Position numbers and translations under genes: made by a program
From: Macrotis lagotis
Lineage: Eukaryota
Direction: 5' to 3'
NCBI RefSeq assembly: GCF_037893015.1
Contig: NC_133661.1
Coordinates: 187,194,809-187,258,808, forward strand
DNA: 64,000 nt
Shown: positions 28,061 through 54,062 of the stretch, piece by piece
Numbering within the stretch: the stretch's first letter is position 1
How the letters are laid out: every line of letters starts with the position of its first letter
Notes under the pieces: generated by a model
The model's input: the letters and a program-made list of their open reading frames with translations, nothing else
Databases searched by the model: none
What the model was told of the DNA's origin: nothing

Positions 28061-28196
28061 GGGCAGCTAGATGGCACAGTGGATAAAGCATTGACCCTGG
28101 AGTAATGAGGATCTGAGTTCAAATCTGTCCTCAAACATTTAATAATTGCCTAGCTGTGTGATCTTAATCTCATTGCCTTAAATCAATTAAAAAAAC
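28061..28196 (+). mobile_element. Diverged tRNA-derived SINE.
   Basis: Recognisable head and B box. Degenerate 3' part. Confidence 0.6.
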
Positions 28197-28637
28197 AGTA
28201 TAAAAGATTTAGTTACCAAGGGAGGCTCAGAAAGTATAATCTGATCTGACAAATAAGAGAAGAACCAAAGAGACAAATAACATGAAAGCTGGGAGAGTAG
28301 GGACTATCTAGGAAAAGATGGAGGGGGATTTTGAAATACATCAAAAGTTACTAAGAAGTCAGGTAAGATAAGATCTGAGAAAGTACCATTGTAACAGCTC
28401 AATATATTTTAGATTGCTTTGGCTTGTAATTATGTCAAACTTGTATTGTTCTAGAAAGCAACATAGTTTGGACCAGCACTGTAACAGACAGAACAAATGA
28501 AAATTGCCAGATATGTAGTCTTAAGCACTACAACTTCTGTTTTCCTGTTCTGATTTATACTCACTTGAAGTCACAGCTACCCTGAAGTAGCTGTTTTGGA
28601 GATTATATCACTCAAAGGGCCTAGAGAAAACCATACC

Positions 28638-28912
28638 AGATCAACTGAATGTGATTAAATACTCAGGGTATGAGTGGTCATCAAAAAAAGTTACAAATAT
28701 TTTTGGCATACCTACTGAGTCAACCAAGCTATCATATCTTCCTCCTCCTGGCTTTTCTGGAGGTAATGCTATTGATGAATCACCTTTAGTGTACTCTCCA
28801 GTAAGCACACGGAACTGGAACATAAGCTTACATCCTTGGTAGCCTTTTCCACAATATTGGGAGGACAGAGAAGCATCCACTGCAAAGTAGATCCCTTGGC
28901 CATACATTCCAT
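28638..28912 (-). CDS. PARP14-like: PARP14-like gene, terminal coding exon (catalytic C-terminus plus stop): N-GMYGQGIYFAVDAS...KIFVTFFDDHSYPEYLITFS*.
   Basis: Acceptor ccttatttttatag| at 28913-28914, with 2 nt completing the codon. The PARP signature Y-G-x-G-x-Y-F-A is present. The C-terminus aligns with human PARP14 AYGKGTYFAVNAN...PSLFVAFYDYQAYPEYLITFRK. Stop codon at 28638-28640. Confidence 0.9.
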
Positions 28913-29730
28913 CTATAAAAATAAGGACTTGTTACTAAGTTTTGTATATATAACAATGTAGAAGCTAAAAATCCCTTGGGATAGGATAATTCAGGATATT
29001 GTAGGAGTAATGGCCTAACTCCTACTCCAATGTGATCTAGGATAGTTTTTTCCTTAAAAGGTATTGGGAGGGCTGAGCCTTGAGTGCTCAGCCTACTAAA
29101 GGTAGGGGAGTGGAGAGAGACTTCTGAGGTCTGTCCTCTGTACCTGGAACAGGACTCTGGGGCCCTGACCACATTTGGATCCTGATCACAGTCTAGGCCC
29201 CCCATAGAACAGCCCCCCCCCCCGCCCACCTCAGCCCTGTGACAGAAGGGTGCACTTGTGGTCATTCATAGACCAGGAGGGAAGACAGAGCCTCACACAC
29301 TGAGTTCCTTTGGGGGGGGGGGTGTCCCTATAATCCTCAAAAGCTCAGGAAGCACCCTAAAAACAGGCATGAGCTTGGGAAATGAGTAAACAGAGGAAAA
29401 AAGAGAAACCCCATTGAGAAATACATTGTCTATGATCCAAGAAGAATCAAAATACTCAATCTAAAGAAGAGGAAACACAAGCTTCTGCATCTAAAGACTC
29501 CAAGAAAAACAGAAATTGGGCTCAGGCTATGACAGAGCTCAAAAAAGATTTTTGAAAATCAAGTAAGGGAGTTAGAAGAAAAACTGGGAAAAGAAGTGAG
29601 AGAGATGCAGGAAAAACATGAAAAAGAAGTCAACAGCTTAGTCAAGGAGATCCAAAAAAATGCTGAAGAAAATAACATGTTAACAACCAGCATAGGTCAA
29701 ATGGATAAAACATTTCAAAAAGTTATTAAG

Positions 29731-29888
29731 TGGGGTGACTAGATTGCACAGTGGATAGTGCACCAGCCCTGGAGTCAGGAGTTTCTGAGTTCAAATCTGG
29801 CCTCAGACACTTAATAATTACCTAGCCGTGTGGCCTTGGGCAAGCCACTTAACCCCATTGCCTTGCAAAAAAAAAAACTAAAAAAAAG
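29731..29888 (+). mobile_element. tRNA-derived poly-A SINE nested in HAL1 copy 1 ORF1.
   Basis: TSD aaaaagttatt. Absent at the homologous position of copy 2. Confidence 0.85.
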
Positions 29889-30122
29889 TTATTGAGGAGA
29901 AGAATGCTTTAAAAAGCAGAATTGGCCAGATGGAAAAAGAGATAAGAAAGCTCTCTGAGGAAAACAAATCCTTCAGATCTAGAATGAAGCTAAAGGAAGC
30001 TGTTGACTTTACGAGAAGTCAAGACACAATACTTCAAAACCAAAAGAATGAAAAATTAGAAGAAAATGTGAAACATCTCATTAAAAAAACAACTGATTTG
30101 GAAAACAGATTCAGGAAAGATT

Positions 30123-30290
30123 ATTTATTTATTTATTTGGGTTTTTTAGATTTTTCAAGGCAATGGGGTTAAGTGGCTTGCCCAAGGCTACATGGCTAGG
30201 TAATTATTAAGTGTCTGAAGTTGGATTTGAACCCAGGTACTCCTGACTCCAAGGCCGGTGCTCTATCTACTGTGCCACCTAGCCACCCCC
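30123..30290 (-). mobile_element. tRNA-derived SINE with (TTTA)n tail, nested in HAL1 copy 1 ORF1.
   Basis: TSD caggaaagat. Absent in copy 2. Confidence 0.85.
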
Positions 30291-30463
30291 CAGGAAAGAT
30301 AACCTAAAAATTATTGGGATACCTGAAAGTCATTATCAGGAAAAGAGCCTTGACATCATTTTTAAAGAATTCCTACAGGAAAATTGCCCAGACATCCTAG
30401 AAGCAGAGGGCAAAATAGGAATTGAGAGAATCCACTGATCTCCCCTGGAAAGAGATCCAAAAA

Positions 30464-30636
30464 ATATTATATTATATTATATTATATTATATTATATTAT
30501 ATTATATTATATTATATTATATTATATTATATTATATTATATTATATTATATCATATCATATCATATCATATTATATTATATCATATCATATCATATCAT
30601 ATCATATTATATTATATTATATTATATTATATTATA
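30464..30636. repeat. (ATATT)n microsatellite (~35 units) with an (ATCAT) interruption block.
   Basis: Direct reading. Lies inside HAL1 copy 1 at the ORF1 end. Confidence 0.95.
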
Positions 30637-32291
30637 GGAATATTTTAGCCAGAAATATTATAGCCAAGTTCCAGAACTCCTAAGTCAAAGAGAAAATATT
30701 ACAAGCAACCAGAAGGACACAATTTAAATATCATGGAGCTGCAATTGGGATCACACAGTACTTAGCATCAACTACATTAAGGGCTCATAGGGCTTGGAAT
30801 ATAATATTTCAGAAGACAAAAGAGCTTGGAATACAACTGAGAATCAACTACCCAGCAAAACTGAAGGTCTTTTTCCAGGAAAAAAGATGGACTTTTAATG
30901 AACCAGAAGAATTTCAAATGTTCCTGTTAAAATAGCCAGAGCTGAACAGAAAATGTGATCTTCAAATACAGGACTCAGGTGAAGCATAGAGAGTGGAGGA
31001 GAAGGGTAAAATATGAGAGATTTAATGATGATGAACTGCATGTATTCCTGCATAGAAGAATGATACTGATAATACTCAGAAACTTCTCATTTAATAGAGC
31101 AGGTAGAAGGAGCTTTTATAGATGAAGCACAGGAGAGAGCTGAATTTGAAGATATAATATATTGTAAAAATGGAGTTAATGGCTAAAAGGGAAATGTAAT
31201 GGGAGTAAGAGAAAGGAGAGGTGGAATAAGCTAAGATATTTTATATAATAAGATTTTTTAATTACAATGAACTATTTCAATGATATGAAAGGGGGGAAGG
31301 CAAGGGGGGATGAGGCAACCTTCACTCTCATCAGAGATGGCTCGGAGAGGAAACAGCATATATACTCAATGGGGTATGACATCTAGAGTAAGAAGGAGAG
31401 AAGCGGGACAGGGAGAGGGAGAGGATGTGAGTGATGGAGGAGAGGGTGGACTGTGGGGGAGAGTAGTCAGATATAACACATTTTCCTTTTTACTTCTAGC
31501 AAGGGGCTGGGATTGGATGGCCTGTCTGGGACCACAGGGCCTGGTGGTTGCTGGGCCTTAAGGGTGGTATGTGGATTTGGGGCCTCTTGGCTCCAGGGCC
31601 AGTGATCAGTCTACTGTGCCACTCAGCTACCCTACAGCATATTTAAGAAGAGGGACAGAGTGAAAGGTGAAAGAAAATATAGTGTATGGTAGCGGGGAAG
31701 TACAAATGGAGGGAGTTGTGATCAACAATGGCAACAGTGGAAAAATGTGGAAGTAGCTTTTGTGATGGACTTATCATAAAGAATGTGATCCACCAGCAAC
31801 AGAGCTAGTGGTGTTGGGACACAGACTGAAGTATATTTATTGTTATTATTATTATTATTATTAGTAGTAGTAGTAGTAGTAGTATTAGTATTAGTATTAT
31901 TATTTATTTTGGTTTTTGGGGAACACTGGGGTTGGGGTGACTTGCCCAGGGTCATACAGCTGAGTGATTGTTGGGTATCTGGGGCCGGATTTGAACTCGT
32001 GTGCTCCTGGCTCCAGGGCCGGTGCTCTGTCCACTGTGCCACCTAGCTGCCCCTATTATTATTTTTTTATTTAAATTTTAATTATTTTCTCTTAACTTCA
32101 TTGATCATGAGGGTCTGTCTATATTTTTGGGGGAGGGGGTATTATATTTACTCTTAAATAGGAATATTTTAGTAATGTATAAAAACATCATTTGTACAAA
32201 AATAAAAATAAATAAAAAACAAAAAAAGAGAGAGATAATTTAAGAATAATTGGACCAACTAAAAGTCATGATCAAAAAAAGGTACTGGGAA

Positions 32292-32452
32292 GGGTGGCTA
32301 GGTGGTGCAGTGGATAGAGCACCAGCCCTGGAGTCAGGAGTACCTGAGTTCAAATCTGGCCTCAGACACTTAATAACTACCTAACTGTGTGTCCTTGGGC
32401 CCGTAACCCCATTGCTTTGCAAAAACCTAAAAAAAAACCCAAACAAACATAA
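32292..32452 (+). mobile_element. tRNA-derived poly-A SINE.
   Basis: TSD aaaggtactggga and aaaaggtattggga. Confidence 0.85.
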
Positions 32453-32854
32453 AAGGTATTGGGATCGTTCTCAAGACTTGCTTGGCACAGGGAATTAAGG
32501 ACTCAAACTATTGAAATTACTTTCTGGCTGCTGATAGAGCAAACATGAAGATCTTTTGGAGATCTGATGGTTGGCTGGTGGATGACAATGGGCAACTCAG
32601 GCAAGGGAGACTTGCCTAGCTTAATCAACTAGAGGGATCCTCAAAATCTTTCCTCATTAAATAGCCTTCTTTAGCCATGGCTAAATAAATCTCCTTTGAA
32701 TGACCAACAAGTATTTCATTTAGTTTCATTATCGAACCTAAACTACCAGGGGACAGGTGTGGTCACACCAAACCAGAATGCAGAAAAATAAGCCTGAATT
32801 TCAATCATTTTAGTAGCATTAAACTCTACCCTCTCTCGGTTGTGGCCTACTCAC

Positions 32855-33026
32855 TTTTCCTACAGGTGCTTTTTAGTCCATTTTCAATGATGGATGAGCA
32901 GTTCTGTCTTGGTGTTCCATGAAAGAGGAACTGCTCATTCTGCACTCCTGGAGGATTCTTTTTCTCCATCCAGTTCCTTTTGTATATATAAGAGGTCCAG
33001 AGGTATGGGTTTTGGATCCTTTTTAT
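32855..33026 (-). CDS. PARP14-like: PARP14-like gene, catalytic exon carrying the H-G-T motif: IKRIQNPYLWTSYIYKRNWMEKKNPPGVQNEQFLFHGTPRQNCSSIIENGLKSTCRK.
   Basis: Acceptor cattatttag| (33027-33028). Donor AGGAAAA|GTGAGT (32853-32854). Aligns with human [41 protein letters not shown]. Phase 0 in, +1 out. Confidence 0.85.
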
Positions 33027-33289
33027 CTAAATAATGAAATCAAAGAGAGAGCCTGGTTATCATTCAAATGAAATTAATATATTTTCTAGGAATATTTTGT
33101 TTTCATAACACCCATATTTCCAAATGATATTTAAATGAATGAACAAGTAACTCCCAACTCCATAGCTATTTTTAGAGCTAGGAAGATTTAGACTTCCTCC
33201 TTCAATAGTTAAGTCCTTTGAACCTTGTGAAATTAGAGATAGAGAATAGGAGGTTAGATTTCTAATTTTTGATTATTTCACACATCAAT

Positions 33290-33440
33290 CTGATGTGGTG
33301 GAAACAGCTGGCATGGAATTAGGAGGCAAAAGACCTAGATTCAAGATCTGTTTCTATCAGTTATGTATTACTGAGCAAGTTGCTTCCTCTTTCAGGACCT
33401 TAGTTTCCCCATTTATAAAATAAAGTATATGAATTAGATG
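33290..33440. repeat. MIR-type SINE.
   Basis: ttagtttccccatttataaaat core. Confidence 0.6.
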
Positions 33441-33685
33441 ATGTCTAAGACCTCTTCCAGTTCCTCAATAAACCCAGTACAGTATAAACTCAAAACCTAC
33501 TTAGGAGAAAGAAAGTAATTGAGAGAAGAGAGATAATAATAATAAATGTAAAAGAGACAATAATGAATGTAGGGATAATTATCTCTATAATATGTCTATA
33601 AGATTATAATAATGTTTTGTTCAGCAGTGTTTTTCTATATGCTGAATTAATGAGCATAAACACCTTTTCATTAAACATAATTCAC

Positions 33686-33822
33686 CTTAAGGATGGTGCT
33701 GTTGTTCATGGAGCACTTGAACTTCTTGGCTACTCTTTCATACTCCATCAGATTTGGTGAGAGTTCCACAGTCTTCACTGGGTCATCATTCATTGGTTCC
33801 CACTGTTGAGGGATACTCATCT
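33686..33822 (-). CDS. PARP14-like: PARP14-like gene, first PARP catalytic-domain exon (137 nt): E-MSIPQQWEPMNDDPVKTVELSPNLMEYERVAKKFKCSMNNSTILK.
   Basis: Acceptor ctttttgtaatag| at 33823-33825. Donor ATCCTTAAG|GTGAAT at 33684-33685. Aligns with human PARP14 [44 protein letters not shown]. The phase links to the WWE exon (+1) and to the next exon (phase 0). Confidence 0.8.
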
Positions 33823-35633
33823 CTATTACAAAAAGTTGGAAGTATCTTTAGAATCTTAAATGAAATCTGTGAGCTTTTCTATTTCTTTTATTAGGAAACT
33901 TTATTTTTTTCTTTTCTAATACATTTTTGTTCTATTTTGTACTGTAGCTATTTGTATATGTAACAAGTCTAATCTTGGTCATACCCACCAGGAGACAGAG
34001 AGAAAGAGAGAGAGAGTTGGGTAAAGGAGTTAATTATCCAAATTCCCAGTTCTACCTAGTGAAATTAGAGATTGAAATGGGAGATTAGATTTTACTCTGT
34101 CCTTTATTCTAACTTGATTTTTTTTCACACATGAATCTGGTATAGTGGAAACAGCACATTGGCCTGGGAGGCAGACAATGACTGCCATCTTAAGGTTGAA
34201 GGGTTAAGATGAGGAAAAAGGAATCCATTACAAGCATGAAGATACAAAAGTGGTAGCCCTTATCAGACCCCAGAGAGGACCCATTAGGACAAACCACAAG
34301 GAGAAGCTATTTCAAGCAGTCAGGGACTGAATTAGAATGAATGGTGATCCTGCAGGGTGATCCTGTGATGATAAGGAAGAAACCTGAACTTCTGTTCAAG
34401 TATGAACCAGAAAGAATGACTGGTGCATCCTTTTCTTTCTTCTCTTTCCCACTATTCAGGAGGGGTGCCAAATGTATGGTGAGTTATTTACTCATTTTAT
34501 CCTTGCCAGGCTATTTGAAAGACTGGAGAAACAAGAAACAAAGGAAGAGACTCAGGAAACTTTTGTCTTTCTCTCAAATGCTCCCTTTTATTTCTAAACT
34601 GTGAAAACGTGATTATAAGAAATCCCCAGTAAACCAATAAACACTGAAATTGTTTGTTGTATTTAATTTAATATTCAGATAAAGTTCAAACTGAAAAAAA
34701 CACTTCCTTTTACTAGATCTGGTTTAATTGAGCCAAATTGAGACTGGAACTAAGAAGGAAGACAAGAAGAGGGATTGGTATTAGACTTTCACAAACCATT
34801 ACAGATGAGGAACTCAGGCAAAGAGGGTAAAGTGACAAAGCTCAGGGTCATACAACTAGGAAGTATCAGAGGTCAGATTTGAAGTCAGGAAGGAGAGTTT
34901 TCTGACTTCACTCATGGCTCTCTATCCACTGTACCATCTAGCTGCCCAAATCCAAGATCAAACTACTGTAAAATTGTTGCTGTTTATGTTGTTATTATTG
35001 GGGGTATTTTTTTGGCAACAAGACAGAAACAATGTATAGCTGAGAAATAAAAGTTACTATTTCAGAGAATGACTGAAGGCCTTCCTATCATAGTTCAAAA
35101 ACCACTAATATTTGAGAAAAATAGAGAGCATCAGTTGCTCAGGTGCTTTAGACTAGCACAACCAGAGTAACCTAACCACATTATTGGTGTCTAAACTTAA
35201 CTTGTTCACCACTGCCCCTTGGCATATATGGATGGGCATAGGTTACACTTCCCTACTTGAATATTAAGTGTATTTCCCCCAACACCTAGTGCTGTTTTCC
35301 TAAATAAATGATGTGCCTAATAAATATTTGTTGAAATAAATATTGAGAATTTTCTAGAAATGGTCAGCTGCCATTTTGTCCAAGGATATAAGAAGAAAAG
35401 TTTTTATTATTGGAACTACACAGTCCTATATTCAAAAAAGCACACTTGCCTTCAAGATATTTATATGCTTTTCTTTATTCCTTAGATGAGTTTTATTTCC
35501 TTCTGAATTTGGGAAGTAGTCTGTTATCTGGCAAAGGCCCTTTATAGCCCTATAAATAGTAAGCACTTAGTAAATGTTGAATTGAGTGACAATATTAATT
35601 TCTGAACTCTTAATAACTTAAAGATTAGAGTAT

Positions 35634-35778
35634 TCTTTGTTTTTGTGGAGCAATGAGGTTAAGTGACTTGCCCAAGGTCACACAGCTAGTAAGTATCAAG
35701 TGTCTCAGTCCAGAATTAAACTCAGGCTCTCCTGACTTCAGCACCAGTGCTTTATTCACTGCAACACCCAGCTGTCCC
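35634..35778 (-). mobile_element. tRNA-derived SINE (older copy).
   Basis: Family body. Flanks tagagtattcttt and tagaatattcttt. Confidence 0.75.
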
Positions 35779-35980
35779 TAGAATATTCTTTTAAATGATC
35801 CTTTTTTCAATCAATTAACTGATTATTGGGAAAGAGGAAGTAAAAGTCACATTAGACACATTTGTTCAGAGTTCTGATAAAAAAAAAATTAAGTGGGACA
35901 AAAAAGATAAAATTATTAATACCTACCTTCCTGTCTGTTAGGAATTAGCACATTACAAATGTAGAAATCTATGGTATTGG

Positions 35981-36133
35981 GGGCAGCTAGGTGTCTCAGT
36001 GGATAGAGTACCAGCCCTGGAGTCAGGAGTACCTGAGTTCAAATCCAGCCTTAGACACTTAATAATTACCTAACTGTGTGGCCTTGGGCAAGCCACTTAA
36101 CCGCATTGCCTTGCAAAAAACTAAAAAAAAAAA
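35981..36133 (+). mobile_element. tRNA-derived poly-A SINE.
   Basis: TSD aaatctatggtatt. Confidence 0.85.
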
Positions 36134-36600
36134 TCTATGGTATTATCAGTTACAGTTTTGCTTAATGTTTCGGAAAATGTCCTGGGGGTGGTGTTATTTA
36201 GGTGTTTTAGGGAAAGTGTTCAGATACAATGTATTAGCAAAAATAAAATAAAGGGATTAGAAGGATTGGATAAAGTGCCTTTTGGATTTTCAGTGGACTT
36301 TTATTTATGTTTCGGCTAGTATAAGCATTTGGGAAATTGACTTGCTAGAGCACCCCAGAAAAAAAACAGTGCAGGACAAGGTAACAACCACCAACTCAAA
36401 TTTCCAATTTGTGGAGTTCCATAATATTGTCCAGAATCATACTAACAACTATGTCAATGATCACTTCTCTCACTCCTATTTAAGAGGAATTTATTGAGGA
36501 ATTTATGCATCTGGGAAGGAATGAGAGCTTTTAAAAAGGGACACAGTCAAGAAAACCCTGATTAAGTAAGAAATGAAAATTAAAGGCAGGGAGAACTTAC

Positions 36601-37125
36601 CCCATATGCAGATTTCTCTCTTTATTTGAAAGACTATCTGGGTGTCTGGCACCAAACCTTCCCTCTTCTTCAGGTTGACCTGGGCTCTTCTAGAATCTAG
36701 GATAATTTCAACATTTTCCTCTTCCTTCCTATATGCTGTTTCCAGTTTTAGGTTTGTACTTTTGTCAAAAGGCAAAAGAACTGTGCTCCCAATGTTATAC
36801 TGCCATTGAACCACTGATTTCAGGGCTTCAGCTGCTATATCTGAGTTCTGAGCTTGGATGAGAGTTTGGACAACAGTGGCAGCTTTCTTCACATCTTCCT
36901 GAAAGCCCTGGATTTTTAAGAGATTCCCATGATGATGTAGATTGAGAGGGAAATAGTATCCCTGATCCAAGACCTCTCGAAGACAGTCTTCACTGAAAGT
37001 GATTATTTTATCACCGTTCAATGTTTCACTGTAAAATCCATTCATAAAGTCTTCCAAAACTTCCTGAAATTTGGCTAAACTCACCTCCCTACCCAATACT
37101 TGAACTAGTCCTAGTGGAGAGTCAC
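36601..37125 (-). CDS. PARP14-like: PARP14-like gene, WWE-domain exon (525 nt).
   Basis: Acceptor tctctctgttctcag| (37126-37127). Donor ATATGGG|GTAAGT (36599-36600). TFSEDCLREVLDQGYY..LN and VVQWQYNIGSTVLLPFDKSTNLKLETAYRKEEENVEI..RRAQVNL align with human PARP14 YTSEDECIKDFDEKEYQELN and EFIEWQYNDNN..FNKMTNLKLEDARREKKKTVDV..HYTVNL. The phases are consistent (2+3n+1). Confidence 0.85.
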
Positions 37126-37573
37126 CTGAGAACAGAGAGAAGAGATTTATAATAAGTTAAATACCATAAAATCTTGAAAAGAAAATAAAACCTGACCCAT
37201 TCTAACCCCATGTTCCCTATGAAGAGGCTAGAATAATGGGATATATAAGGAAAGGTTAAAAGAATTGAAATTACTTAGTCTGAAAAAGGCTGAATAATTG
37301 CATTCAGTTTTTGAAAGATTAGCTTAGAAAATATATGTCTATAGAAATATATGTACATATACATATATTTCTATAGAAAAAGGCAATAACAATTTTCTAA
37401 TTTAACTGATAGGGAAAATGAATGGTATTTGAACTTTAGCATATTTAATCAATGGTAATAAAAAGATGAGGTTTAATTTAGAGGAAACTATTACTTCCTT
37501 TTTCACCAATTTCACTAACTGAATTAGTGTATAGTCAGTCATCAAAGGAGAGTTAAAAGATTAGATTTTAGAT

Positions 37574-37579
<6 letters not shown>

Positions 37580-37634
<55 letters not shown>
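37580..37634. repeat. (CT)27 microsatellite.
   Basis: Direct reading. Confidence 0.95.
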
Positions 37635-37638
<4 letters not shown>

Positions 37639-38485
37639 TCTTATAATGACTTTCTAGAAGTATCCATGGACATTGCTTAATACTGTTAATAGCAACCTAC
37701 TTGACTTGTACACCCAAGACAAAATGACTTGTGGAAGTACCAGATTTTACTATAGAAAAAAAACCAAATATCAAATGAGTATATGGAGAACTGTGGATGG
37801 ATGACAATGTTCAGTATTATTTTTTTAATTTTAAGATAGACAAGATAGAATTTCCACTTATTACATACAGAAATTTTTATATACAGAACTACTATATGCA
37901 TGAATTTCCATATACTCATGGAACCTTAGGAATAGACTGAGGAGGGAGTAGTTGAACTATATAACATTTAAGATCTTTTACAAATTTGATCTATGGTGAT
38001 AAAAACATGAAGTTTAATTTAGGGGAAACTATTACTTTGAAGCTCTCTTTTCACCAATTTCACTGGCTAAATTAGTGTATCATCAGTCATCAGAGATTTA
38101 ATTAGAGGCAGTTGGTGAAAAAGAAGACATAGTACAGGACTTGGAGTCAGGAAAATCAGAAATCAAATCCAGCTTCAAATATTAACTAGATTATGACCCT
38201 GTGCAACTCAATTAATCTCAGTTTGTTTCAGCTTCCCAGCCTGTAAACTGGGGACAACAGCACTTAGCTGGCACTTTATGGAATGAATCAAATGAAGTAA
38301 TATTTACAAAAGCTCTTAGTCCATTGTCAGAACTACATAAAGGCCTCTTCCCTAACTGATAGTTATATCTGAGGCAACCAATAACAGTGATCCTCCTCCC
38401 TTTCTTCTCCCCTTTCTCCTTCTACATATTGGTCCCCTCTACAGATTCAGAAAAGAAGTGAACCTTTGCTCTGACAATGCTGAGC

Positions 38486-38603
38486 AATCATAGACTGCTG
38501 CTTAGTGGCTCTCCTGCCATTTTGTGAATAACTGAGAAGAGGATACTTCTCTCTGGAGTATGAATATCTCTAAATGGGTTAATGCCCCCAAATTCCCATG
38601 CAT
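38486..38603 (-). CDS. PARP14-like: Candidate macro-domain exon (D-AWEFGGINPFRDIHTPERSILFSVIHKMAGE...). Its 3' boundary is not resolved.
   Basis: Acceptor tttctttcatttccag| at 38604-38605. The frame is phase-compatible with the upstream 61-nt exon. Pattern A.E.GG..F...........I.S.I.K resembles macro-domain AIPAISSGVFGFP...IVSAIKENF. An in-frame stop near 38487 means the donor lies above it and was not located. Confidence 0.35.
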
Positions 38604-38678
38604 CTGGAAATGAAAGAAAAATAATTCAGCTATTTAATAGGGATCCCAGGGAACAGAACAACATCTCTTCCCCCTTAC

Positions 38679-38739
38679 CAAGAGCAAAATGTTCTTTTCT
38701 GTGTCTCCTGAGAAGCTTCATCAGCTCATGGACAAATGT
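38679..38739 (-). CDS. PARP14-like: Candidate small macro-domain exon (61 nt; TFVHELMKLLRRHRKEHFAL).
   Basis: Strong acceptor (ttattctttctttctgttag|) and donor (|GTAAGGGGG) 61 nt apart. One frame is open. The phase (+1) matches the next candidate exon 75 nt downstream. Weak similarity to the macro-domain helix preceding the SIAxPAIxxG motif. Confidence 0.4.
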
Positions 38740-38814
38740 CTAACAGAAAGAAAGAATAAGAAATCTACTAAATATATCAGCAACACAGGACATTCCCCAG
38801 AAGACTGAAAGACA

Positions 38815-38974
38815 TTTTTTTTAGTTTTGGGTTTTTTTTTGGAAGGCAATGGGCTAAGTGGCTTGTCCAAGGCCACACAGCTAGGTAATTATTAAGTATC
38901 TGAGGCCAGATTGAACTCAGGTACTCCTGACTCCAGGGCTGGTGCTCTATCCACTGTGCAATTTAGCTGCCCCT
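38815..38974 (-). mobile_element. tRNA-derived poly-A SINE.
   Basis: Family consensus, reverse orientation. Confidence 0.8.
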
Positions 38975-39068
38975 GAAAAGATATTTCTTTTGACTTCTCT
39001 AAGGGATCCTAAGTTTCAGACACTTATAAACTTCCATTTCATTTTTTTTGTTTGTTTTTGTTTTTGTT

Positions 39069-39248
39069 TTTTTTTTTTCAGGTTTTTGCAAGGCAAATGG
39101 GGTTAAGTGTCTTGCCCAAGGCCACACAGCTAGGTAATTAAGTGTCTGAGACCAGACTTGAACCCAGTTACTCCTGACTCCAAGGCCGGTGCTTTATCCA
39201 CTACTCCACCTAGCTGCCCCCTCACTATGCCACCTAGTCGCCCCCCCT
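39069..39248 (-). mobile_element. tRNA-derived poly-A SINE with a partial duplication of its head end.
   Basis: ccacctagctgccccctcactatgccacctagtcgccccc. Confidence 0.8.
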
Positions 39249-40563
39249 TCCATTTCATTTTTAAAAATATATTTTCTAATCTAATAAACAAAAAAGAATG
39301 GACTTAAAGATGAAGAAATCAAGGGAAAAAGTTGAAGCAAACACTGACATTTGATCAATGATGAAGTCCAGTTAGTTTAGGACCTTCCTCCCAGAGGGAA
39401 GATGAGGAACAGGGACACAAAATTACTGATTAAATTGTTAATGAACCCATTCAATCCTTAAGTGCTGCTAATCCCTATTTGGTAATAATTGTATGTTTAG
39501 AGGTAACTAGGTTCTACTTACCCCAGATTAGATTATTTGTAGAGTTCTGCTTCTCTAATCTATCTAGCATTTTAAAAACATCATTCCATCCTAACTACCA
39601 TGACATTCAAAATCAGCCTGCACAGTTTTATAGAAGGGTTGGTGGCTCCAGGTTATTTCACTTTTTTTTTCTTTTTGGAACCAGAACCAGAACCTGTAGC
39701 CAGGGCATCATTGACTCAATTGATTTATATATTGTCAATTGTCATGGCCAATAAATTGGCTAATAAACTGTCAATTATCATGGTCAAAAATATTTACTTG
39801 AAATGCATTTGGAGAAACACTAGAATTATTTCCCAGTAAGTTCAAGGGCAAGGCAAAGGTATGCAGTGTTTCCTCCATTATTTGTTATAGAGCTATAAAT
39901 GGTAGCTATAACAATTAAAAAGTAAAATCAAGGGAATCAACAGATAAAGAAGTAAAATTTTTTATGGTAGCAAAAGGATATGATTGTCTAAAGAACTTCA
40001 GTAATTCAAATTCTAAAAATTATTTGAAAAAATAGTTTTAATAAAGTAGCAGGATTTAAAATATACTAACAATAAATCTCATTGCTAATCAGTTGACAAT
40101 GAGACTGTCATCATGCCTTGAAATTCTGGACTAGTCTGATAAAATCAATAAATGACATCTAAGTATGCAAAGAATTAGTATGTAGAAGATAGATGCCAAT
40201 CAGTGTTTACTAAAAAGATAAAAATAAATGGACCAAAAATGTCACAAAAGAAGATAGTGGTTAGATATCAGGAACAATATTTTTATACTTACCACATTTC
40301 AGATTAATATAGAACACAAGGGGGGAGCCCTAATGAACCTCATGAAGTGAGAAAGTGATAGATATAAATCTATGCATAAAAATTATACTCAAATGATGGG
40401 AAAATTGATTCCAAGCACAAATGAGAAAAGTTCTAGGGGAAAAAAAAGAGGATTGTAAAAGTCAAAGAGAACTAAAATGGATCAGTGAGGGTTTTTTCAC
40501 AGTATGTCATCAAGAAGGGCAAGAACTTAAAATCCAGGATATTTTGGCATAATATAGGACTTA

Positions 40564-40735
40564 AGGGCAGCTAGGTGGTGCAGTAGATAAGAACAAAGGC
40601 CCTGGAGTCAGGAGTACCTGAGTTCAAATCTGGCCTCAGACACTTAATAATTACCTAGCTGTGTGGCCTTGGGCAAGCCACTTAACCCCATTTGCCTTGC
40701 AAAATCCTAAAAAAACCAACCAAACAAACAAACAT
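40564..40735 (+). mobile_element. tRNA-derived poly-A SINE.
   Basis: TSD cataatataggactt. Confidence 0.85.
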
Positions 40736-41031
40736 AATATAGGACTTGATCAGAGAAGCAAGTGAACTTTAGGATTTATTGAGTCTAACTTTATTCTCAA
40801 TATTTCAATATTTAAAGTTATTAAACATCAATATTTTTATAATATTTATTTTTAATCAGTCATATCTGACTTTAATGTGCTTCCCCTTATTGTCTTTTGC
40901 AGATGCTGTATTTTTTAGAAATTGAAGATTTGTGGCAACCCTGCAAGATTAATGGCACCAATTTTCCAAAAGCATGTGTTCACATCACATTAATGTGTCA
41001 CATTTTGCTAATTCTCACAAATTCTCACATT

Positions 41032-41034
<3 letters not shown>

Positions 41035-41063
<29 letters not shown>

Positions 41064-41072
41064 TATTATTAT
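41035..41072. repeat. (CAT)n followed by (TAT) microsatellite.
   Basis: Direct reading. Confidence 0.9.
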
Positions 41073-41956
41073 ATCAAATATTGTGATCTGGTATTGATAT
41101 TACTATTGCTTTAGGATGCCACAACCATACCTATCCAAGATGGGCAAACATAACCAATAAATATTTATATGTTCTGACTATTCCATTGATTGCTCCCTGT
41201 CATTTTCCCTCTCCTTGGATCTCCCTATTCCTTGAGACACAACAATATTGAAATCAGGTCAATTAATAACCCTACAATGGCCTCTAAGTGTTCAAGGGAA
41301 AGGAAGAGTTAATCAGTGTGACAAATTTCATTATTATCTTATTTTAAGAAATGAACATAGCCACTACAACCTTTAGCAATACTACCCTGATCAGTCAGCA
41401 GCCATCAGGATCAAGATAAGATCCTCTAATAGGAAAAAGATTATAAATCACTACAGGCCCAGGTGACAGTTAACATTTTTAGGCAATAAAATATTTTTAA
41501 ATTAAGGTATGTATATTTTTTAGACATTATATTATTGCACATTTAATGGACTAGAATGCAGTATAAACATAATATTTATGTAAACAAGGAAACTAAAAAT
41601 TTCATGAAACTTGCTTTACTGGGGTATTTACCTTATTATAGTGCTCTGGAATCAAACCTGCAATATTTCTGAGACATGTTAGTATATGTATACATTTTAT
41701 TAGATTATAAACTCCTTGAGCTGAAAAAGACCAAATTTGAATTTCCTCCATTGTTCAGCACAGTGTTATATGCACTATGTACTTAATAAATTTTTAATGA
41801 ATGAATGAGTAAACTCCCAAAAGAGCTTAAACAAACCAAGGTATCTACTTTAAAGACCCCTAAGAATGTTAGAGGAATTTTTTTTCTAGTCTTAGAATAA
41901 GGGGAACAAAAAAAAAAGATTCCTCAAATCCCCTTTCAGTTCTGTAATTTTATCAA

Positions 41957-44641
41957 GAATTGATGATTCTGGTGGAGCCAAGATGGTGACAAGAGAGCAA
42001 CGTCTCTTAGAAGCTCTCTCATAAAACTTATAAGCTAAGGACTCTAAGTAAACTTTCAAGAGACAGAACCCACAGAGGGACCCAGTGAGGCAGTTCTCCT
42101 ACTCAAGGTAACCTGGAAAAGAACAGAAAGGCTCTGCTCCCCCGGGTCAGAGGGGTGGCCCACCAGAGCAAAAGAAATTCAGCCTCCAGGAGGCAGTCCC
42201 AGGGAGCTGGGAGCCGCGGCTCACAGTAGCGGGGGGAGTTTCCTGAGCTATGCCCTGGGAAGCACCGGGTACAAATTGGGGGAACAGCAGGGGGACCTCT
42301 GCCAGAGTGAGCACATGAAGCCCAGCCCTCAGGGCACACAGCGAACAAGTGGTCTTTCCCCAGCCCAGATCCAGGAACAGAAGCAGGCAGAGCCAGTAAG
42401 CAGGACCCCCAGGGCATGAGCCCATTGAACCTAGCGGAGGGGAGTGAAGAGAGACTGCCCAGCTCTGTCCTCTGCCCCTGGAAAAGGACCCTGGAAAAGG
42501 ACTCTGGGGTTCTGACCACATTCAGATCCTGATCACAGTCTAGGCCCCCCATAGAACAGCAGGGCACCCTCCACCTCAGCCCCATGACAGAGGGGGGCGT
42601 ATATGGTCATTCACAGACCAGGAGGGAGGACAGAGCCTCACACACTGAAACCCTTGTGGGAGTGTCCCAAAAGCTCAGGAAGCACCCCAAAACCAGGCTC
42701 AGACTGGGAAAATGAGCAAGCAGAGAAACAAGAGGAAGACCATTGAGAAATATTTTCCATATGAACCCAAGAAGGATCAAAATACTCAGTCTGAAGATGA
42801 GGAAGCACAAGTTCCTGCATCTAAGGACTCCAAGAAAAACAGAAATTGGGCTCAGGCTATGACAGAGCTCAAAAAAAGACTTTGAAAATCAAATGAGGGA
42901 GTTAGAAGAAAAACTGGGAAAAGAAAGGAGAGAGATGCAGGAAAAACATGAAAATGAAGTCAGCAGCCTAGTCAAGGAAATCCAAAAAAATGCTGAAGAA
43001 AATAACATGCTAAAAACCAGCTTAGGTCAAATGGATAAAACAGTTCAAAAAGTTATTGAGGAGAAGAATGCTTTAAAAAGCAAAATTGGCCAGATGGAAA
43101 AAGAGATAAGAAAACTCTCTGAGGAGAACAAATTCTTCAGACAAAGAACAGAACTCAGGGAGACTGATGAATTTACAAGAAATCAGGAATCAATACTTCA
43201 AAACCAAAAAAATGAAAAATTAAAAGAAAATGTGAAATATCTCATTGAAAAAACAACTGATATGGAAAACAGACTTAGGAAAGATAATTTAAAAATTATT
43301 AGAATACCTGAAAGTCATGATCAGGAAAAGAGCCTTGACATCATTTTCAAAGAATTGCTACAGGAAAATTGCCCTGATAGTCTAGAAGCAGAGGGCAAAA
43401 TAGAAATGGAGAGAATCTACCGATTGCCCTGAGAAAGAGATCCCAAAAAACCAACCCCTAGGAATATTATAGCCAAGTTCCAGAACTCCCAAGTCAAAGA
43501 GAAAATATTACAAGCAGCCAGAAGAACATAGTTCAAATACTGTGGAGCTGCAGTCAAGATCACACAGGACTTAGCAGCAACTACATTGGAAGCTCATAGG
43601 GCTTGGAATATAATACACCAGAAGGCAAAAGAGCTTAGAATGAAGCCAAGAATCAATTACCCAGCAAAACTGAATGTCCTCTTCCAGGAAAAAAGATGGA
43701 CTTTCAATGAACCAGGGGAATTTCAAATGTTCCTGTTGGAATGGCTAGAGCTGAACAGAAGGTTTGATCTTCAGATATAGGACTCAGGTGAAGCATAGAG
43801 ATTGGAGGAGAAGGGGAAAATATGAGGGACTTAACGATGATGAACTGCATGTATTCCTGCATAGAAAAATGACACTGATAATACTCATATGAACCTTCTC
43901 AGTTAATAGAGCAGGTAGAGGGAGCTTTTATAGTTGAAGCACAGAAGAAAGCTGAATTTGAAGATAAAATATGGTGTAAAAATGTAGTCAATAGAAAAAA
44001 AAGGGAAATGTGATGGGAGAAAGAAAAAGGAGAGGAGGGAATAGGCCAAGATATCTCATATGATAAGTTTTTTCTTTAGTACAATGAGCTATTGCAATGA
44101 TATGGAAGGGGGGAAGGCAAGGGAGAATGAGGGAATCTTCACTCTCATCAGAGGTGGCTAGGAGAGGAAACAGCATATATACTCAATGGGGTATAGACAT
44201 CTAGAGTAAGAAGAAAAGGGGGGACAGGTGGAAGGGGGGGGATGTGAGTGATGGAGGAAAGGATGGACCCTGGGGGGAGAGTGGTCAGATATAACACATT
44301 TTCCTTTTTACTTCTAGCAAGGGGCTGGGATTGGATGGCCTGTCCAGGACCATAGGGCCAGGTGGATGCTGGGCCTAAGGGGTGGTAGGGGGCTCAGGGC
44401 CTCTTGGCCCCAGGACCAGGGATCTGTCTGCTGTGCCACTCATCTACCCTACAGTAGAGTCAGAGTGAAAGTAGAGAGAAAATATAGTATACATGGTAGT
44501 GGAGAAATATGAAGGGAGGGAGTTGTGATCAGCAATGGCAACAGTGGAAAAATATGGAATCAACTTTTGCAATGGACTTACCATAAAGAATGTGATCTAT
44601 CCGCGACAGAGTTGTTGGTGTTGGAACAAAGACTGAAGCAC

Positions 44642-44687
<46 letters not shown>

Positions 44688-45204
44688 TGGGGGGGTGCAG
44701 GGCAAATGGGGCTGGGTGGCCTGCTCGGAGCTACATAGTAGGGTGATCTTTGGGTGTCTGAGGCTGAATTCGGACCCAGGTGCTCCTGGCTCAAGGGCCA
44801 ATGCTCTGTCCACCACCCAGCCACCCCTACTACCATTATTACTATTTTTATTTTATTTTGGGTCTTTTTTTTCTTTTTTTTTTTTTGGTTTTTGCAGGGA
44901 ATTGGGGTTGGGGTGGCTTGCATGTCACACAGCTGGGTGATTGTTGGGTGTATGAGGCCAGATATGGGCTCGGGTTCTCCTGGATACAGGACTGGGGCTC
45001 CGTCCATTGCGCCATCTGGCCATACCTACAATTATTACTATTATTTTTTATTTTAATTTTTTTTCTCCCCTTTACTTTATCGCTCAAGCGAGTCTATATT
45101 TTGTGGGGAGAGGGGGTATTCTGTTTACTCTTAAACAAGAATATTTTATTAATGTATAAAAAAACATTATTTGTATAAAAAGAGAATAAATAAATATAAA
45201 AAAA
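41957..45204 (+). mobile_element. Half-L1 (HAL1-like) composite element, copy 2.
   Basis: Composition in order: L1 5' end (ggtggagccaagatggtgac...), a GC-rich 5'UTR, ORF1 (42893-43432, 179 aa, coiled-coil ORF1p-like, terminated), a ~1 kb non-ORF2 tail, (TTA)n, two SINE-like modules, and an A-rich tail. Flanked by the TSD aagaattgatgattct at 41940-41955 and 45207-45223. Confidence 0.7.
44645..44688. repeat. (TTA)n microsatellite internal to HAL1 copy 2. Its homologue in copy 1 is (TTA)n(TAG)n at 31846-31896.
   Basis: Direct reading. Confidence 0.9.
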
Positions 45205-45223
45205 AAGAATTGCTGATTCTTGC

Positions 45224-45390
45224 GGGCGGCTAGGTAGCATAGTGGATAAAGCACTGGCTTGGAGTCAGGAGTACCTGGGTTCAAATCCAGACTCAGACAC
45301 TTAATAATTACCTAGCTGTGTGGCTTTGGGCAAGCCACTTAATCCCATTTGCCTTACAAAAACCTAAAAAACAAGAAACAACAACAACAA
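45224..45390 (+). mobile_element. tRNA-derived poly-A SINE inserted about 15 nt into the intron after the donor of the 45413-46796 exon.
   Basis: TSD gaattg(c/a)tgattctt at 45209-45223 and 45396-45410. This is the same target as the TSD of the adjacent HAL1-like element. Confidence 0.85.
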
Positions 45391-45412
45391 AAAAGAATTG
45401 ATGATTCTTACC

Positions 45413-53894: not shown

Positions 53895-54049
53895 GGGCAG
53901 CTACGGTGGTGCAGTGGATAGAGCACCAGCCCTGGAGTCAAGAGTACCTGAGTTCAAATCCAGCCTCAGACATTTAATAATTACCTAGCTGTGTGGCCTT
54001 GGGCAAGCCACTTAGCCCCATTTGCCTTGCAAAAACCTATATAAAAAAA
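53895..54049 (+). mobile_element. tRNA-derived poly-A SINE inserted 13 nt into the intron after the donor of the 5' large exon.
   Basis: TSD aatgactactt at 53883-53893 and 54050-54060. Donor gtaagtag preserved. Confidence 0.85.
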
Positions 54050-54062
54050 AATGACTACTTAC

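What the first reader, a model, noticed from the sequence alone, without database searches (positions are those of the whole stretch)
29060..45204. Two HAL1-like (ORF1-only) composite elements, same orientation, 13 kb apart in introns of the same gene
The two copies are at 29060-32230 and 41957-45204. They share an identical module order: L1 5'UTR, ORF1, about 1 kb of non-ORF2 tail, an internal (TTA)n, a diverged SINE-like module, and an AT-rich terminus. Copy 2 is flanked by a clear TSD, so it is a bona fide retrotransposed unit and not a segmental duplication. This suggests a non-autonomous half-L1 family that has captured a SINE-like 3' module. Copy 2 keeps a 179-codon ORF1p-like open frame (42893-43432) ending at a stop, then coding-like sequence with stops. 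Copy 1 is 5'-truncated about 150 bp from the acceptor of the terminal PARP exon.
Basis: partly seen in the sequence, partly recalled or inferred. Interest (0 to 1): 0.55.

Follow-up and report, generated by a model that had tools for sequence, protein, structure and literature searches.

The report
Two half-L1 (HAL1) retrotransposon copies
These are two separate insertions of a marsupial "half-L1" element, a LINE-1 derivative that keeps the ORF1 gene, has lost the ORF2 enzyme gene and has picked up backward SINE pieces in its tail; this kind of parasite-of-a-parasite is already known, so the finding is real but ordinary.

Summary
Copy 1 (29070-32229) and copy 2 (41971-45204) are colinear at about 85% identity. 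Their target-site duplications differ and their flanks are unrelated, so they are independent retrotranspositions, not a segmental duplication. Each has an L1-type 5'UTR, a decayed ORF1 of about 370 codons (Pfam L1 ORF1p domains; 89-90% identical to an intact greater-bilby protein), and a spacer of about 490 bp. After the spacer come an antisense CORE-SINE module, unique sequence, (TTA)n, a second antisense SINE module and an AT-rich end with AATAAA. No endonuclease or reverse-transcriptase remnant is detectable, whereas a wallaby L1 control scores strongly. Four wallaby loci carry related ORF1-only elements of about 2.7 kb with their own duplications. Their tails align with the window's spacer and with the inter-ORF spacer of an autonomous wallaby L1. 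dN/dS between the two copies is 0.31, against 0.59 in a neutral simulation, so they descend from different active sources that already carried the SINE modules. This is a HAL1 family, a known kind with marsupial entries in RepeatMasker libraries: at most a new member. In both copies a sense SINE follows and re-uses the same target site, which is known L1-endonuclease catenation.

The parts
41955..41970 (+). Copy 2, left target-site duplication AAGAATTGATGATTCT
   Evidence: Sequence. Identical to 45393-45408 and one mismatch from 45205-45220.
41971..42711 (+). Copy 2, full-length L1-type 5'UTR. It starts GGTGGAGCCAAGATGGTGA, with a YY1-box-like CAAGATGGTGA at 41979-41989.
   Evidence: The first 15 nt are shared with the wallaby HAL1 5' ends. 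The human L1 YY1 site CAAGATGGCCG at nt 12-22 is described in PMC2912911. The rest of the UTR cannot be aligned to wallaby.
42712..43822 (+). Copy 2, decayed ORF1 of about 370 codons, with one 1-nt frameshift near 42871 and four in-frame stops. It contains the 179-codon open frame 42893-43432.
   Evidence: Pfam Transposase_22 and Tnp_22_dsRBD. tblastn against intact bilby P0001: 89% identity over 317 aa. Homologue search.
43823..44316 (+). Copy 2, spacer with no coding signal. It is homologous to the tail of wallaby HAL1 elements and, through them, to the inter-ORF spacer of an autonomous wallaby L1.
   Evidence: blastn 42794-44279 against L002, 68% over 1517 bp. Also aligns to L003. 67% identity over 432 nt against L001. 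Wallaby HAL1 tail against L004 inter-ORF, z=12. No Pfam or PDB hit.
44317..44449 (-). Copy 2, old antisense CORE-SINE module 'c', full length and shared with copy 1 (31499-31632)
   Evidence: Local alignment to the reverse-complemented SINE consensus scores 29 (copy 2) and 35 (copy 1) against 9.5 +/- 1.2 for shuffles.
44450..44643 (+). Copy 2, family-specific unique segment shared with copy 1
   Evidence: 83% identity between the copies. No match to the wallaby HAL1 or L1 3' regions.
44644..44687 (+). (TTA)14.7 microsatellite, probably the degenerated A-rich tail of the antisense SINE that follows it
   Evidence: TRF. Alignment with the copy 1 (TTA/GTA)n array.
44688..44830 (-). Antisense SINE module 'a', present only in copy 2 and lying inside the (TTA)n tract relative to copy 1
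   Evidence: It is 31% diverged from the SINE consensus.
44865..45021 (-). Copy 2, antisense SINE module 'b' with its T-run, shared with copy 1 (31897-32052)
   Evidence: Divergence from the consensus is 26% (copy 2) and 20% (copy 1), against 5-20% for free genomic SINEs.
45022..45204 (+). Copy 2, AT-rich 3' terminus with AATAAA at 45185-45190 and a short A run
   Evidence: Sequence. Colinear with copy 1 32053-32229.
45205..45220 (+). Copy 2, middle copy of the target site, AAGAATTGCTGATTCT
45222..45392 (+). Sense WSINE1-like SINE catenated to copy 2. It is followed by a third copy of the target site at 45393-45408.
   Evidence: 11.8% from the consensus.
29056..29069 (+). Copy 1, left target-site duplication AAAAGGTATTGGGA
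   Evidence: Sequence. Identical to 32451-32464 and one mismatch from 32277-32290.
29070..32229 (+). Copy 1, a 5'-truncated HAL1. Layout: partial 5'UTR, decayed ORF1 29382-31013, spacer 31014-31498, antisense SINE-c 31499-31632, unique segment, (TTA/GTA)n, antisense SINE-b 31897-32052, AT-rich terminus. It is interrupted by later SINEs at 29733-29887 (+) and 30141-30288 (-) and by a microsatellite at 30465-30640.
32230..32281 (+). 52-bp fragment of a different L1 ORF1 (RDNLRIIG...SHDQKK type), lying between the A-rich end of copy 1 and the middle target-site copy
   Evidence: blastn, 81% identity to 43279-43330. Sequence.
32277..32464 (+). Middle target-site copy AAAAGGTACTGGGA (32277-90), sense WSINE1-like SINE (32291-32450) and third target-site copy (32451-64)
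   Evidence: 11.4% from the consensus.

Best explanation
The two intervals are independent insertions of a marsupial HAL1 ('half-L1') family, made by the L1 machinery. HAL1 is a non-autonomous LINE-1 derivative.

The transcript carries an L1-type 5'UTR/promoter, ORF1 and a spacer that appears to derive from the L1 inter-ORF region. In place of ORF2 and the L1 3'UTR it has a lineage-specific 3' region. In this lineage that region was built around antisense CORE-SINE (WSINE1-like) insertions and ends in an AATAAA signal and an A-rich tail.

Inferred mechanism: Pol II transcribes a source copy from the internal 5'UTR promoter. ORF1p is translated and coats its own RNA. The endonuclease and reverse transcriptase (ORF2p) are borrowed in trans from an autonomous L1. 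ORF2p nicks an A-rich target, primes on the A tail and copies the RNA. The result is 14-16 bp duplications and, for copy 1, a 5' truncation.

Both copies are now dead (stops and frameshifts) and sit antisense in introns of a PARP14-like gene. After or before each insertion, a sense SINE used the same regenerated endonuclease site, giving three copies of the target sequence.

What is shown: the anatomy, the independence of the two insertions, the absence of ORF2, homology to wallaby ORF1-only elements, and selection on ORF1 in the source lineages. What is inferred: mobilisation in trans by L1 ORF2p, promoter function, and the order of the HAL1 and SINE insertions.
For: - Colinear 85% alignment with unrelated flanks.
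- Different perfect duplications at the exact element ends, A-rich at their start as expected for L1 endonuclease.
- L1 ORF1p domains, and 89-90% identity to an intact 370-aa greater-bilby protein, P0001, whose reading frame runs 19 codons into the spacer exactly as in the window.
- A second bilby gene model, P0021, starts in the ORF1 C-terminus and reads across the same junction.
- No EN/RT signal in any forward frame of either tail, with a positive control on a wallaby L1 ORF2.
- Copy 2 is only 3234 bp from a YY1-box-like 5' end to the A tail.
- Four wallaby loci (L001, L002, L005, and L003 of a second subfamily) carry ORF1-only elements. Three have an intact ORF1 (L001, L003, L005). Duplications were read at L001 and L002. 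L001, L003 and L005 have no long ORF downstream of ORF1.
- The window element aligns to the wallaby elements through ORF1 and about 450 bp of tail, stopping just before SINE-c.
- The wallaby HAL1 tail aligns to the inter-ORF spacer of an autonomous wallaby L1, L004.
- dN/dS is 0.24 between window and wallaby ORF1. It is 0.31 between the two window copies, against 0.59 +/- 0.13 in a neutral simulation, p about 0.001. The two copies therefore come from different sources that kept ORF1 functional and already carried SINE-c and SINE-b.
- HAL1 is an established class (PMC5322556, PMC5753468, PMC5786205). HAL1-2a_MD and HAL1-3A_ME are RepeatMasker LINE entries.
Against: - No marsupial repeat library or bilby assembly could be searched. 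Copy number, a family consensus and a match to a named Repbase/Dfam entry are all untested.
- Only two genomic copies of this exact family were seen, plus two bilby proteins whose loci could not be fetched.
- The window tail does not align significantly to the wallaby L1 inter-ORF spacer directly (z about 1). The homology is by transitivity through the wallaby HAL1 tail.
- It is not excluded that an autonomous L1 with a near-identical 5'UTR, ORF1 and spacer exists in the same genome.
- The source species of the window is inferred only from the best protein hit.
Confidence: 0.9

Rival explanations
1. The two are ordinary L1 copies that each lost ORF2 by an internal deletion, during or after insertion. 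There would then be no ORF1-only family.
For: Internal deletions of L1 copies do occur. Only two genomic copies were examined, and no consensus is available.
Against: Both independent insertions have identical module order and junctions from the spacer through SINE-c, the unique segment, SINE-b and the terminus. No EN/RT remnant is left on either side of any junction. Wallaby relatives show the same ORF1+spacer-only design at four loci. dN/dS of 0.31 between the copies shows descent from separate functional sources that already had this structure.
Confidence: 0.04
2. Each copy arose afresh from a full-length L1 transcript that was prematurely polyadenylated or spliced. On this view the family has no ORF1-only master copies.
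For: The break lies at about the end of the inter-ORF spacer, just where ORF2 would begin. A similar break position is seen in wallaby.
Against: About 900 bp of shared non-L1 3' sequence follows the spacer in both copies: SINE-c, the unique segment, SINE-b and the AT-rich terminus with AATAAA. This would have to sit between the spacer and ORF2 of the parent L1, where it would separate ORF2 from ORF1. The intact bilby ORF1 (P0001) and the selection signal fit self-propagating ORF1-only sources.
Confidence: 0.04
3. A segmental (tandem) duplication of one insertion within the gene.
For: Same orientation, 13 kb apart, same gene, and each copy is followed by a sense SINE.
Against: The duplications differ (AAAAGGTATTGGGA against AAGAATTGATGATTCT). 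The 5' ends differ (one truncated, one full-length). The flanks match only at dispersed SINE copies.
Confidence: 0.01
4. A domesticated ORF1-derived host gene or exon (L1TD1-like) rather than a transposon.
For: NCBI annotates related intact ORF1s as 'uncharacterized protein' genes in bilby and wallaby.
Against: Both window copies carry frameshifts and stops, are flanked by duplications, lie antisense in introns, and have multiple dispersed relatives with their own duplications.
Confidence: 0.01

Closest known systems
HAL1 (half-L1) non-autonomous LINE-1 derivatives (Smit 1999; Bao & Jurka 2010, Gene 465:9). Marsupial RepeatMasker entries include HAL1-2a_MD (opossum) and HAL1-3A_ME (wallaby).
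   Same: L1-type 5' end, L1 ORF1 only, no ORF2, A-rich tail, L1-type duplications, several independent copies, and ORF1 kept under selection in the source lineages. The class is described in PMC5322556, PMC5753468 and PMC5786205. The library names were seen.
   Different: This lineage has a 3' region rebuilt around two or three antisense CORE-SINE modules that the wallaby relatives lack.
Wallaby (Notamacropus eugenii) ORF1-only elements fetched here: L001 7331-10070, L002 7884-10651, L005, and subfamily L003
   Same: Same 5'-terminal GGAGCCAAGATGG motif. ORF1 is 54-65% identical at protein level. The spacer after ORF1 is homologous (67% over 432 nt). There is no ORF2. Duplications are 13-15 bp and A-rich at their start.
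   Different: The rest of the 5'UTR and the distal 3' region cannot be aligned. The wallaby elements are shorter (2.7 kb), have no internal SINE modules, and three of the four have an intact ORF1.
Autonomous marsupial L1 (wallaby L004: ORF1, ~520-bp purine-rich inter-ORF spacer, 1298-aa ORF2 with EN and RT)
   Same: Homologous ORF1p (58% identity to the window ORF1). The spacer is homologous to the wallaby HAL1 tail. The insertion signature is the same.
   Different: It has ORF2 (RVT_1 1e-44, Exo_endo_phos 7e-20). Its ORF1p falls on the other side of a 79%-bootstrap split from the HAL1-type ORF1ps.
ORF1-only non-autonomous LINEs of other clades (HeT-A of Drosophila, Ag-Sponge of Anopheles)
   Same: Same logic: they keep the gag-like ORF1 and borrow the RT from an autonomous partner (PMC5786205).
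   Different: They belong to different LINE clades (Jockey, CR1) and have no sequence relationship to these elements.
CLIQUEs: catenated L1-endonuclease-induced queues of Alu/L1/SVA (Cook et al. 2011, PMC3215922)
   Same: Explains the sense SINE abutting each HAL1 copy and re-using its target site. Duplications and A tails regenerate endonuclease sites, which produces closely spaced clusters with a same-orientation bias.
   Different: The concept was described for the human genome. Here the re-used second nick falls within 0-1 nt in both loci, which is tighter than that paper discusses.

Membership tests
HAL1 (half-L1) | Encodes a protein homologous to L1 ORF1p (RRM and C-terminal domain) | tested here: met
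   Pfam PF02994 7e-10 and PF17490 2e-5 on the conceptual ORF1. 89-90% identity to intact bilby P0001.
HAL1 (half-L1) | A full-length unit lacks ORF2 (no endonuclease or reverse-transcriptase sequence) | tested here: met
   Copy 2 is 3234 bp between its duplications. There is no Pfam hit at E<=1 in the three forward frames of either tail and no PDB hit at E<=10. The positive control L004 ORF2 gives RVT_1 1e-44 and EN 7e-20.
HAL1 (half-L1) | L1-type 5' end, A-rich 3' end and L1-type target-site duplications | tested here: met
   GGTGGAGCCAAGATGG 5' start. AATAAA plus an A run at the 3' end. Duplications of 14 and 16 bp beginning with A-rich sequence.
HAL1 (half-L1) | It is a family: the ORF1-only structure recurs in independent insertions | tested here: met
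   Two window copies with different duplications and the same junctions. Bilby proteins P0001 and P0021 read across the same ORF1-spacer junction. Wallaby relatives occur at four loci. Genome-wide copy number was not testable.
HAL1 (half-L1) | ORF1 maintained by selection in the source lineage | tested here: met
   dN/dS is 0.31 between the copies against 0.59 +/- 0.13 in a neutral simulation (p about 0.001). It is 0.24 against wallaby. Intact relatives exist.
HAL1 (half-L1) | Mobilised in trans by L1 ORF2p | not testable with these tools
   Inferred from the duplication and A-tail signature only. It needs a retrotransposition assay.
HAL1 (half-L1) | Sequence match to a named Repbase/Dfam HAL1 consensus (e.g. 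HAL1-3A_ME) | not testable with these tools
   No repeat library is available. Only the names could be confirmed.
WSINE1-type CORE-SINE (for the free SINEs and the internal antisense modules) | tRNA-related head, truncated CORE, poly(A) tail and L1-type duplications, about 140-150 bp | tested here: inconclusive
   The consensus of 26 window copies is about 135 bp plus an A tail, with A/B-box-like motifs. Duplications are 12-21 bp. This fits the description in PMC3403934, but no WSINE1 consensus was available for direct alignment.
Autonomous LINE-1 | Carries ORF2 with EN and RT domains | tested here: not met

The most novel reading that the evidence does not exclude
The ORF1-only design may be ancient in marsupials rather than a recent local derivative.

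- The spacer after ORF1 is almost as conserved between the window family and wallaby HAL1s as ORF1 itself: 67% against 73% identity, while synonymous sites are saturated (pS 0.56).
- HAL1-type ORF1ps from bilby, wallaby, wombat and opossum group apart from the one verified autonomous wallaby L1 ORF1p (79% bootstrap).

If this holds, a non-autonomous L1 lineage has persisted for more than 50 million years with a constrained non-coding spacer. That spacer might serve to capture ORF2p. In the bilby lineage the 3' end was repeatedly rebuilt from antisense SINE insertions.
Probability: 0.15. Interest if true: 0.5.

Novelty: new member of a known kind. Interest (0 to 1): 0.22.

Why it matters
The practical value is mainly for annotation.

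- The unit should be masked as one HAL1-type element, not as separate L1, SINE and simple-repeat pieces.
- Intact relatives are currently annotated as 'uncharacterized protein' genes in the bilby and wallaby assemblies.

Biologically it adds a peramelemorphian example to the known HAL1 class. It also shows that a HAL1 tail can accumulate and then propagate antisense SINE insertions.

The conserved spacer and the apparent age of the ORF1-only lineage would be worth a genome-wide look. This is especially so given published reports of declining L1 activity in Australian marsupials (PMC5010896, title and abstract seen). Nothing here changes the current picture of L1 biology.

Tried and rejected
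- **Bilby loci could not be fetched.** Look-ups for P0001, P0021 and the window's own 179-aa ORF all returned 'not on record'. The devil protein P0011 also failed. No further copies of the exact family could be examined.
- **Source species not confirmed.** A search with the 434-aa PARP14-like exon found no protein at E<=1e-3 and no PDB hit. The species was therefore not confirmed that way.
- **Direct alignment of the window spacer to the wallaby L1 inter-ORF spacer** was not significant (z about 1). Only the transitive link through the wallaby HAL1 tail holds.
- **The 3' termini** of the window HAL1, the wallaby HAL1 and the wallaby L1 3'UTR share only A-rich low-complexity similarity. The origin of the terminal ~190 bp is unresolved.
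- **One-step origin of the HAL1+SINE composite rejected.** I considered RT template switching from SINE RNA to HAL1 RNA. A full copy of the target site lies between the two elements, and it differs between the loci, so two staggered-cut events are required.
- **Adaptive role of the antisense SINE modules not supported.** I considered that they pair with SINE RNA. SINE-b plus the terminus is the fastest-diverging part between the copies (K2P 0.25, against 0.13 for ORF1 and spacer). SINE-b is only about 68-73% identical to a free SINE copy used as blastn query.
- **Rfam at gathering thresholds** over 28000-46000 returned nothing.
- **Bao & Jurka 2010** (PMC2923044) is not held in the library. 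What that paper says about marsupial HAL1s could not be checked.

Full report
**Observation**

The two intervals are related and colinear. blastn gives five ordered blocks at 78-89% identity, the longest being 1228 bp (30651-31863 against 43460-44670). Outside the elements only dispersed SINE copies match. With the nested insertions removed, a global alignment has 85.2% identity over 2586 bases.

Copy 2 runs from 41971 to 45204. It lies between AAGAATTGATGATTCT (41955-41970) and AAGAATTGCTGATTCT (45205-45220). Copy 1 runs from 29070 to 32229 and lies between AAAAGGTATTGGGA (29056-29069) and AAAAGGTACTGGGA (32277-32290).

Three features show two independent retrotranspositions rather than a segmental duplication:
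- The duplications differ.
- The 5' ends differ. Copy 1 starts at about copy-2 position 42400-42438.
- The flanks are unrelated.

Copy 1 was later hit by two SINEs (29733-29887 and 30141-30288, each with its own duplication). It also carries a microsatellite at 30465-30640.

**Anatomy**

Copy 2 starts GGTGGAGCCAAGATGGTGA. The two wallaby relatives start GGCGGAGCCAAGATGGTGG and GGAGGAGCCAAGATGGCGG. This motif resembles the YY1 site CAAGATGGCCG at nt 12-22 of human L1 (PMC2912911). Copy 2 is therefore full-length.

The conceptual ORF1 (42712-43822) hits Pfam Transposase_22 (7e-10) and Tnp_22_dsRBD (2e-5). It is 89% identical over 317 residues to P0001, an intact 370-aa protein of the greater bilby. 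Relative to P0001 it has one frameshift and four stops.

Downstream, none of the three forward frames of either copy gives any Pfam hit at E<=1, and there is no PDB hit at E<=10. The 1298-aa ORF2 of a wallaby L1 used as a control gives RVT_1 1e-44 and Exo_endo_phos 7e-20.

The 3' region contains, in order:
- a full-length but old antisense SINE module (44317-44449; copy 1 31499-31632; score 29-35 against 9.5 +/- 1.2 for shuffles);
- about 190 bp of unique sequence;
- (TTA)n;
- a second antisense SINE module (44865-45021; copy 1 31897-32052);
- a 190-bp AT-rich terminus with AATAAA.

Copy 2 has one further antisense module (about 44688-44830) inside the (TTA)n tract. The internal modules are 20-31% diverged from a consensus of 26 free SINE copies in the window. 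The free copies themselves are 5-20% diverged.

The free SINEs have 12-21 bp duplications, most beginning with A-rich sequence. They fit the published description of the L1-mobilised WSINE1 (PMC3403934). I could not align them to the WSINE1 consensus.

**Relatives**

Four wallaby loci fetched through ORF1p hits carry ORF1-only elements.
- L001 (7331-10070) has the duplication AAAATGAAGGGGA and an intact 362-aa ORF1.
- L002 (7884-10651) has the duplication AAAATTCCTTCTATA and is 88% identical to L001 over its full length.
- L005 has an intact ORF1 and a long pure A tail, and lies inside an APC intron.
- L003 belongs to a second subfamily and has an intact 388-aa ORF1.

L001, L003 and L005 have no open frame of 130 aa or more downstream of ORF1; L002 was not scanned for ORFs, but it is colinear with the L001 element over its full length.

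Copy 2 aligns to L002 from 42794 to 44279 (68%, 1517 bp) and to L003 from 42711 to 44258. The alignment therefore covers ORF1 and about 450 bp beyond it, and stops just before the first antisense SINE module.

L004 is an autonomous wallaby L1 with ORF1, a purine-rich inter-ORF spacer of about 520 bp, and ORF2. The wallaby HAL1 tail aligns to that spacer (68% of 255 nt, z=12). The window spacer does so only through the wallaby HAL1 tail. The distal 3' regions share nothing beyond A-rich similarity.

**Is it a family with a selected ORF1?**

dN/dS between the two window copies is 0.31. A neutral simulation with the observed transition/transversion counts gives 0.59 +/- 0.13, and 0.1% of runs reach 0.31 or lower. 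Against wallaby the value is 0.24.

Much of the divergence between the two copies therefore accumulated in functional sources. Since both copies carry SINE-c, SINE-b and the same terminus at the same junctions, those modules belonged to the propagating lineage.

The bilby proteins P0001 and P0021 read across the same ORF1-spacer junction. This indicates further copies elsewhere in that genome.

**Comparison with what is known**

HAL1 is an established class of ORF1-only L1 derivatives that arose several times in mammals (PMC5322556, PMC5753468, PMC5786205). HAL1-2a_MD and HAL1-3A_ME appear as LINE entries in RepeatMasker output. Every defining feature I could test is met.

Trans-mobilisation and a match to a named consensus could not be tested. 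I therefore file this as a new member of a known kind, at most. The bilby genome paper reports L1 as the dominant repeat class (20.9% of the assembly), and a keyword search of its text for repeat, LINE, SINE, transposable and RepeatMasker turned up no mention of HAL1.

**Side observations**

In both loci a sense SINE follows the HAL1 copy and is itself followed by a third copy of the same target sequence. Because a full target copy lies between the two elements, two sequential staggered-cut events are required. The first insertion regenerates the endonuclease site.

This is the catenation described as CLIQUEs in the human genome, including the same-orientation bias (PMC3215922). None of 26 SINE tails in the window shows it, against both HAL1 tails. 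The second nick was re-used to within 0-1 nt in both loci. That is mildly notable but post hoc.

Copy 1 also carries a 52-bp fragment of a different L1 ORF1, ending in an internal A run, between its own A-rich end and the target copy. This suggests either 3' transduction or a template switch from an L1 mRNA.

The spacer is nearly as conserved between window and wallaby as ORF1 (67% against 73%), although synonymous sites are saturated. In an NJ tree the HAL1-type ORF1ps separate from the single verified autonomous L1 ORF1p with 79% bootstrap. These two points allow, but do not establish, an ancient and constrained ORF1-only lineage.

**Host context**

The host gene is on the minus strand and is PARP14-like: weak KH_PARP14 matches, WWE_1, and the PARP catalytic domain. 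Both elements are antisense to it and intronic. Copy 1 starts 157 bp from the acceptor of the last exon. The copy-2/SINE composite ends about 20 nt from a likely GTAAGG donor of the large KH exon (sequence).

**Verdict**

Noticed in passing
window 29056-29069 / 32277-32290 / 32451-32464 and 41955-41970 / 45205-45220 / 45393-45408: Both HAL1 copies are followed by a sense SINE and a third copy of the same target site. The outer copies are identical, and the middle copy has one mismatch in both loci. The second-strand nick was re-used to within 0-1 nt. None of 26 SINE tails in the window shows such catenation, against 2 of 2 HAL1 tails. This fits the CLIQUE phenomenon of PMC3215922. The order of the two insertions is unresolved.
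   Followed up: partly
window 32230-32281: A 52-bp fragment of a different L1 ORF1 (encoding ...DNLRIIG..SHDQKK and ending in an internal A7 run) sits between the A-rich end of copy 1 and the middle target copy. It is either a 3' transduction from a source nested in an L1, or a reverse-transcriptase template switch from an L1 mRNA to the HAL1 RNA.
   Followed up: partly
window 43823-44316 and 31014-31498; L001 9090-9620: The non-coding spacer after ORF1 is 67% identical between the window family and wallaby HAL1. ORF1 is 73% identical, yet synonymous sites are saturated (pS 0.56), and the 5'UTR and distal 3' region cannot be aligned. The spacer therefore looks constrained even though there is no ORF2 to translate.
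   Followed up: partly
window 41971-41989; L001 7331-7350; L002 7884-7900: The 5' terminus GG(T/C/A)GGAGCCAAGATGG(T/C)G of the marsupial HAL1s closely resembles the 5' end and YY1 box of human L1 (CAAGATGGCCG, nt 12-22).
   Followed up: partly
window 45409-45432 and 28913-29070: The copy-2/SINE composite ends about 20 nt from a likely GTAAGG splice donor (minus strand, GT at 45431-45430) of the large KH-domain exon. Copy 1 starts 157 nt from the acceptor of the terminal PARP exon. Both elements are antisense to the gene.
   Followed up: partly
window 45367-46668 (minus strand): The 434-aa PARP14-like exon has only weak KH_PARP14 Pfam matches. It found no protein at E<=1e-3 in the 5.8-billion-sequence database and nothing in the PDB. 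That is odd for an exon of this size.
   Followed up: no
window 44688-44830: The extra antisense SINE module in copy 2 shares derived substitutions with module b (for example GGTGAT..TTGGGTGT where the SINE consensus has GGTAATTATTAAGTGT). It may be a tandem duplication of module b, or both may come from an older SINE subfamily.
   Followed up: partly
window 30465-30640: A (TATTA/TATCA)n microsatellite of about 175 bp has expanded inside the ORF1 of copy 1. Copy 2 has about 10 bp of ordinary sequence at the same position.
   Followed up: no
L001, L003, L005 (Notamacropus eugenii GCA_028372415.2); proteins P0001, P0003-P0010: Intact HAL1 ORF1s are annotated as 'uncharacterized protein' genes in the wallaby and bilby NCBI annotations (P0003 stands for 20 member sequences). 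L005 lies inside an APC intron and has a long pure A tail, so it looks recent.
   Followed up: partly
protein P0013: A 345-aa marsupial-type L1 ORF1p is deposited as a hypothetical protein of a Bacteroidales metagenome-assembled genome on a 2.5-kb contig. This is probably host DNA contamination.
   Followed up: no
window 54015-55172 (minus strand): A 386-aa open frame on the gene strand has no Pfam hit. It was not examined further.
   Followed up: no
whole window: At least 26 near-full-length copies of one CORE-SINE family occur in 64 kb, about one per 2.5 kb. They are 5-20% diverged from their consensus, and most have clear L1-type duplications.
   Followed up: partly
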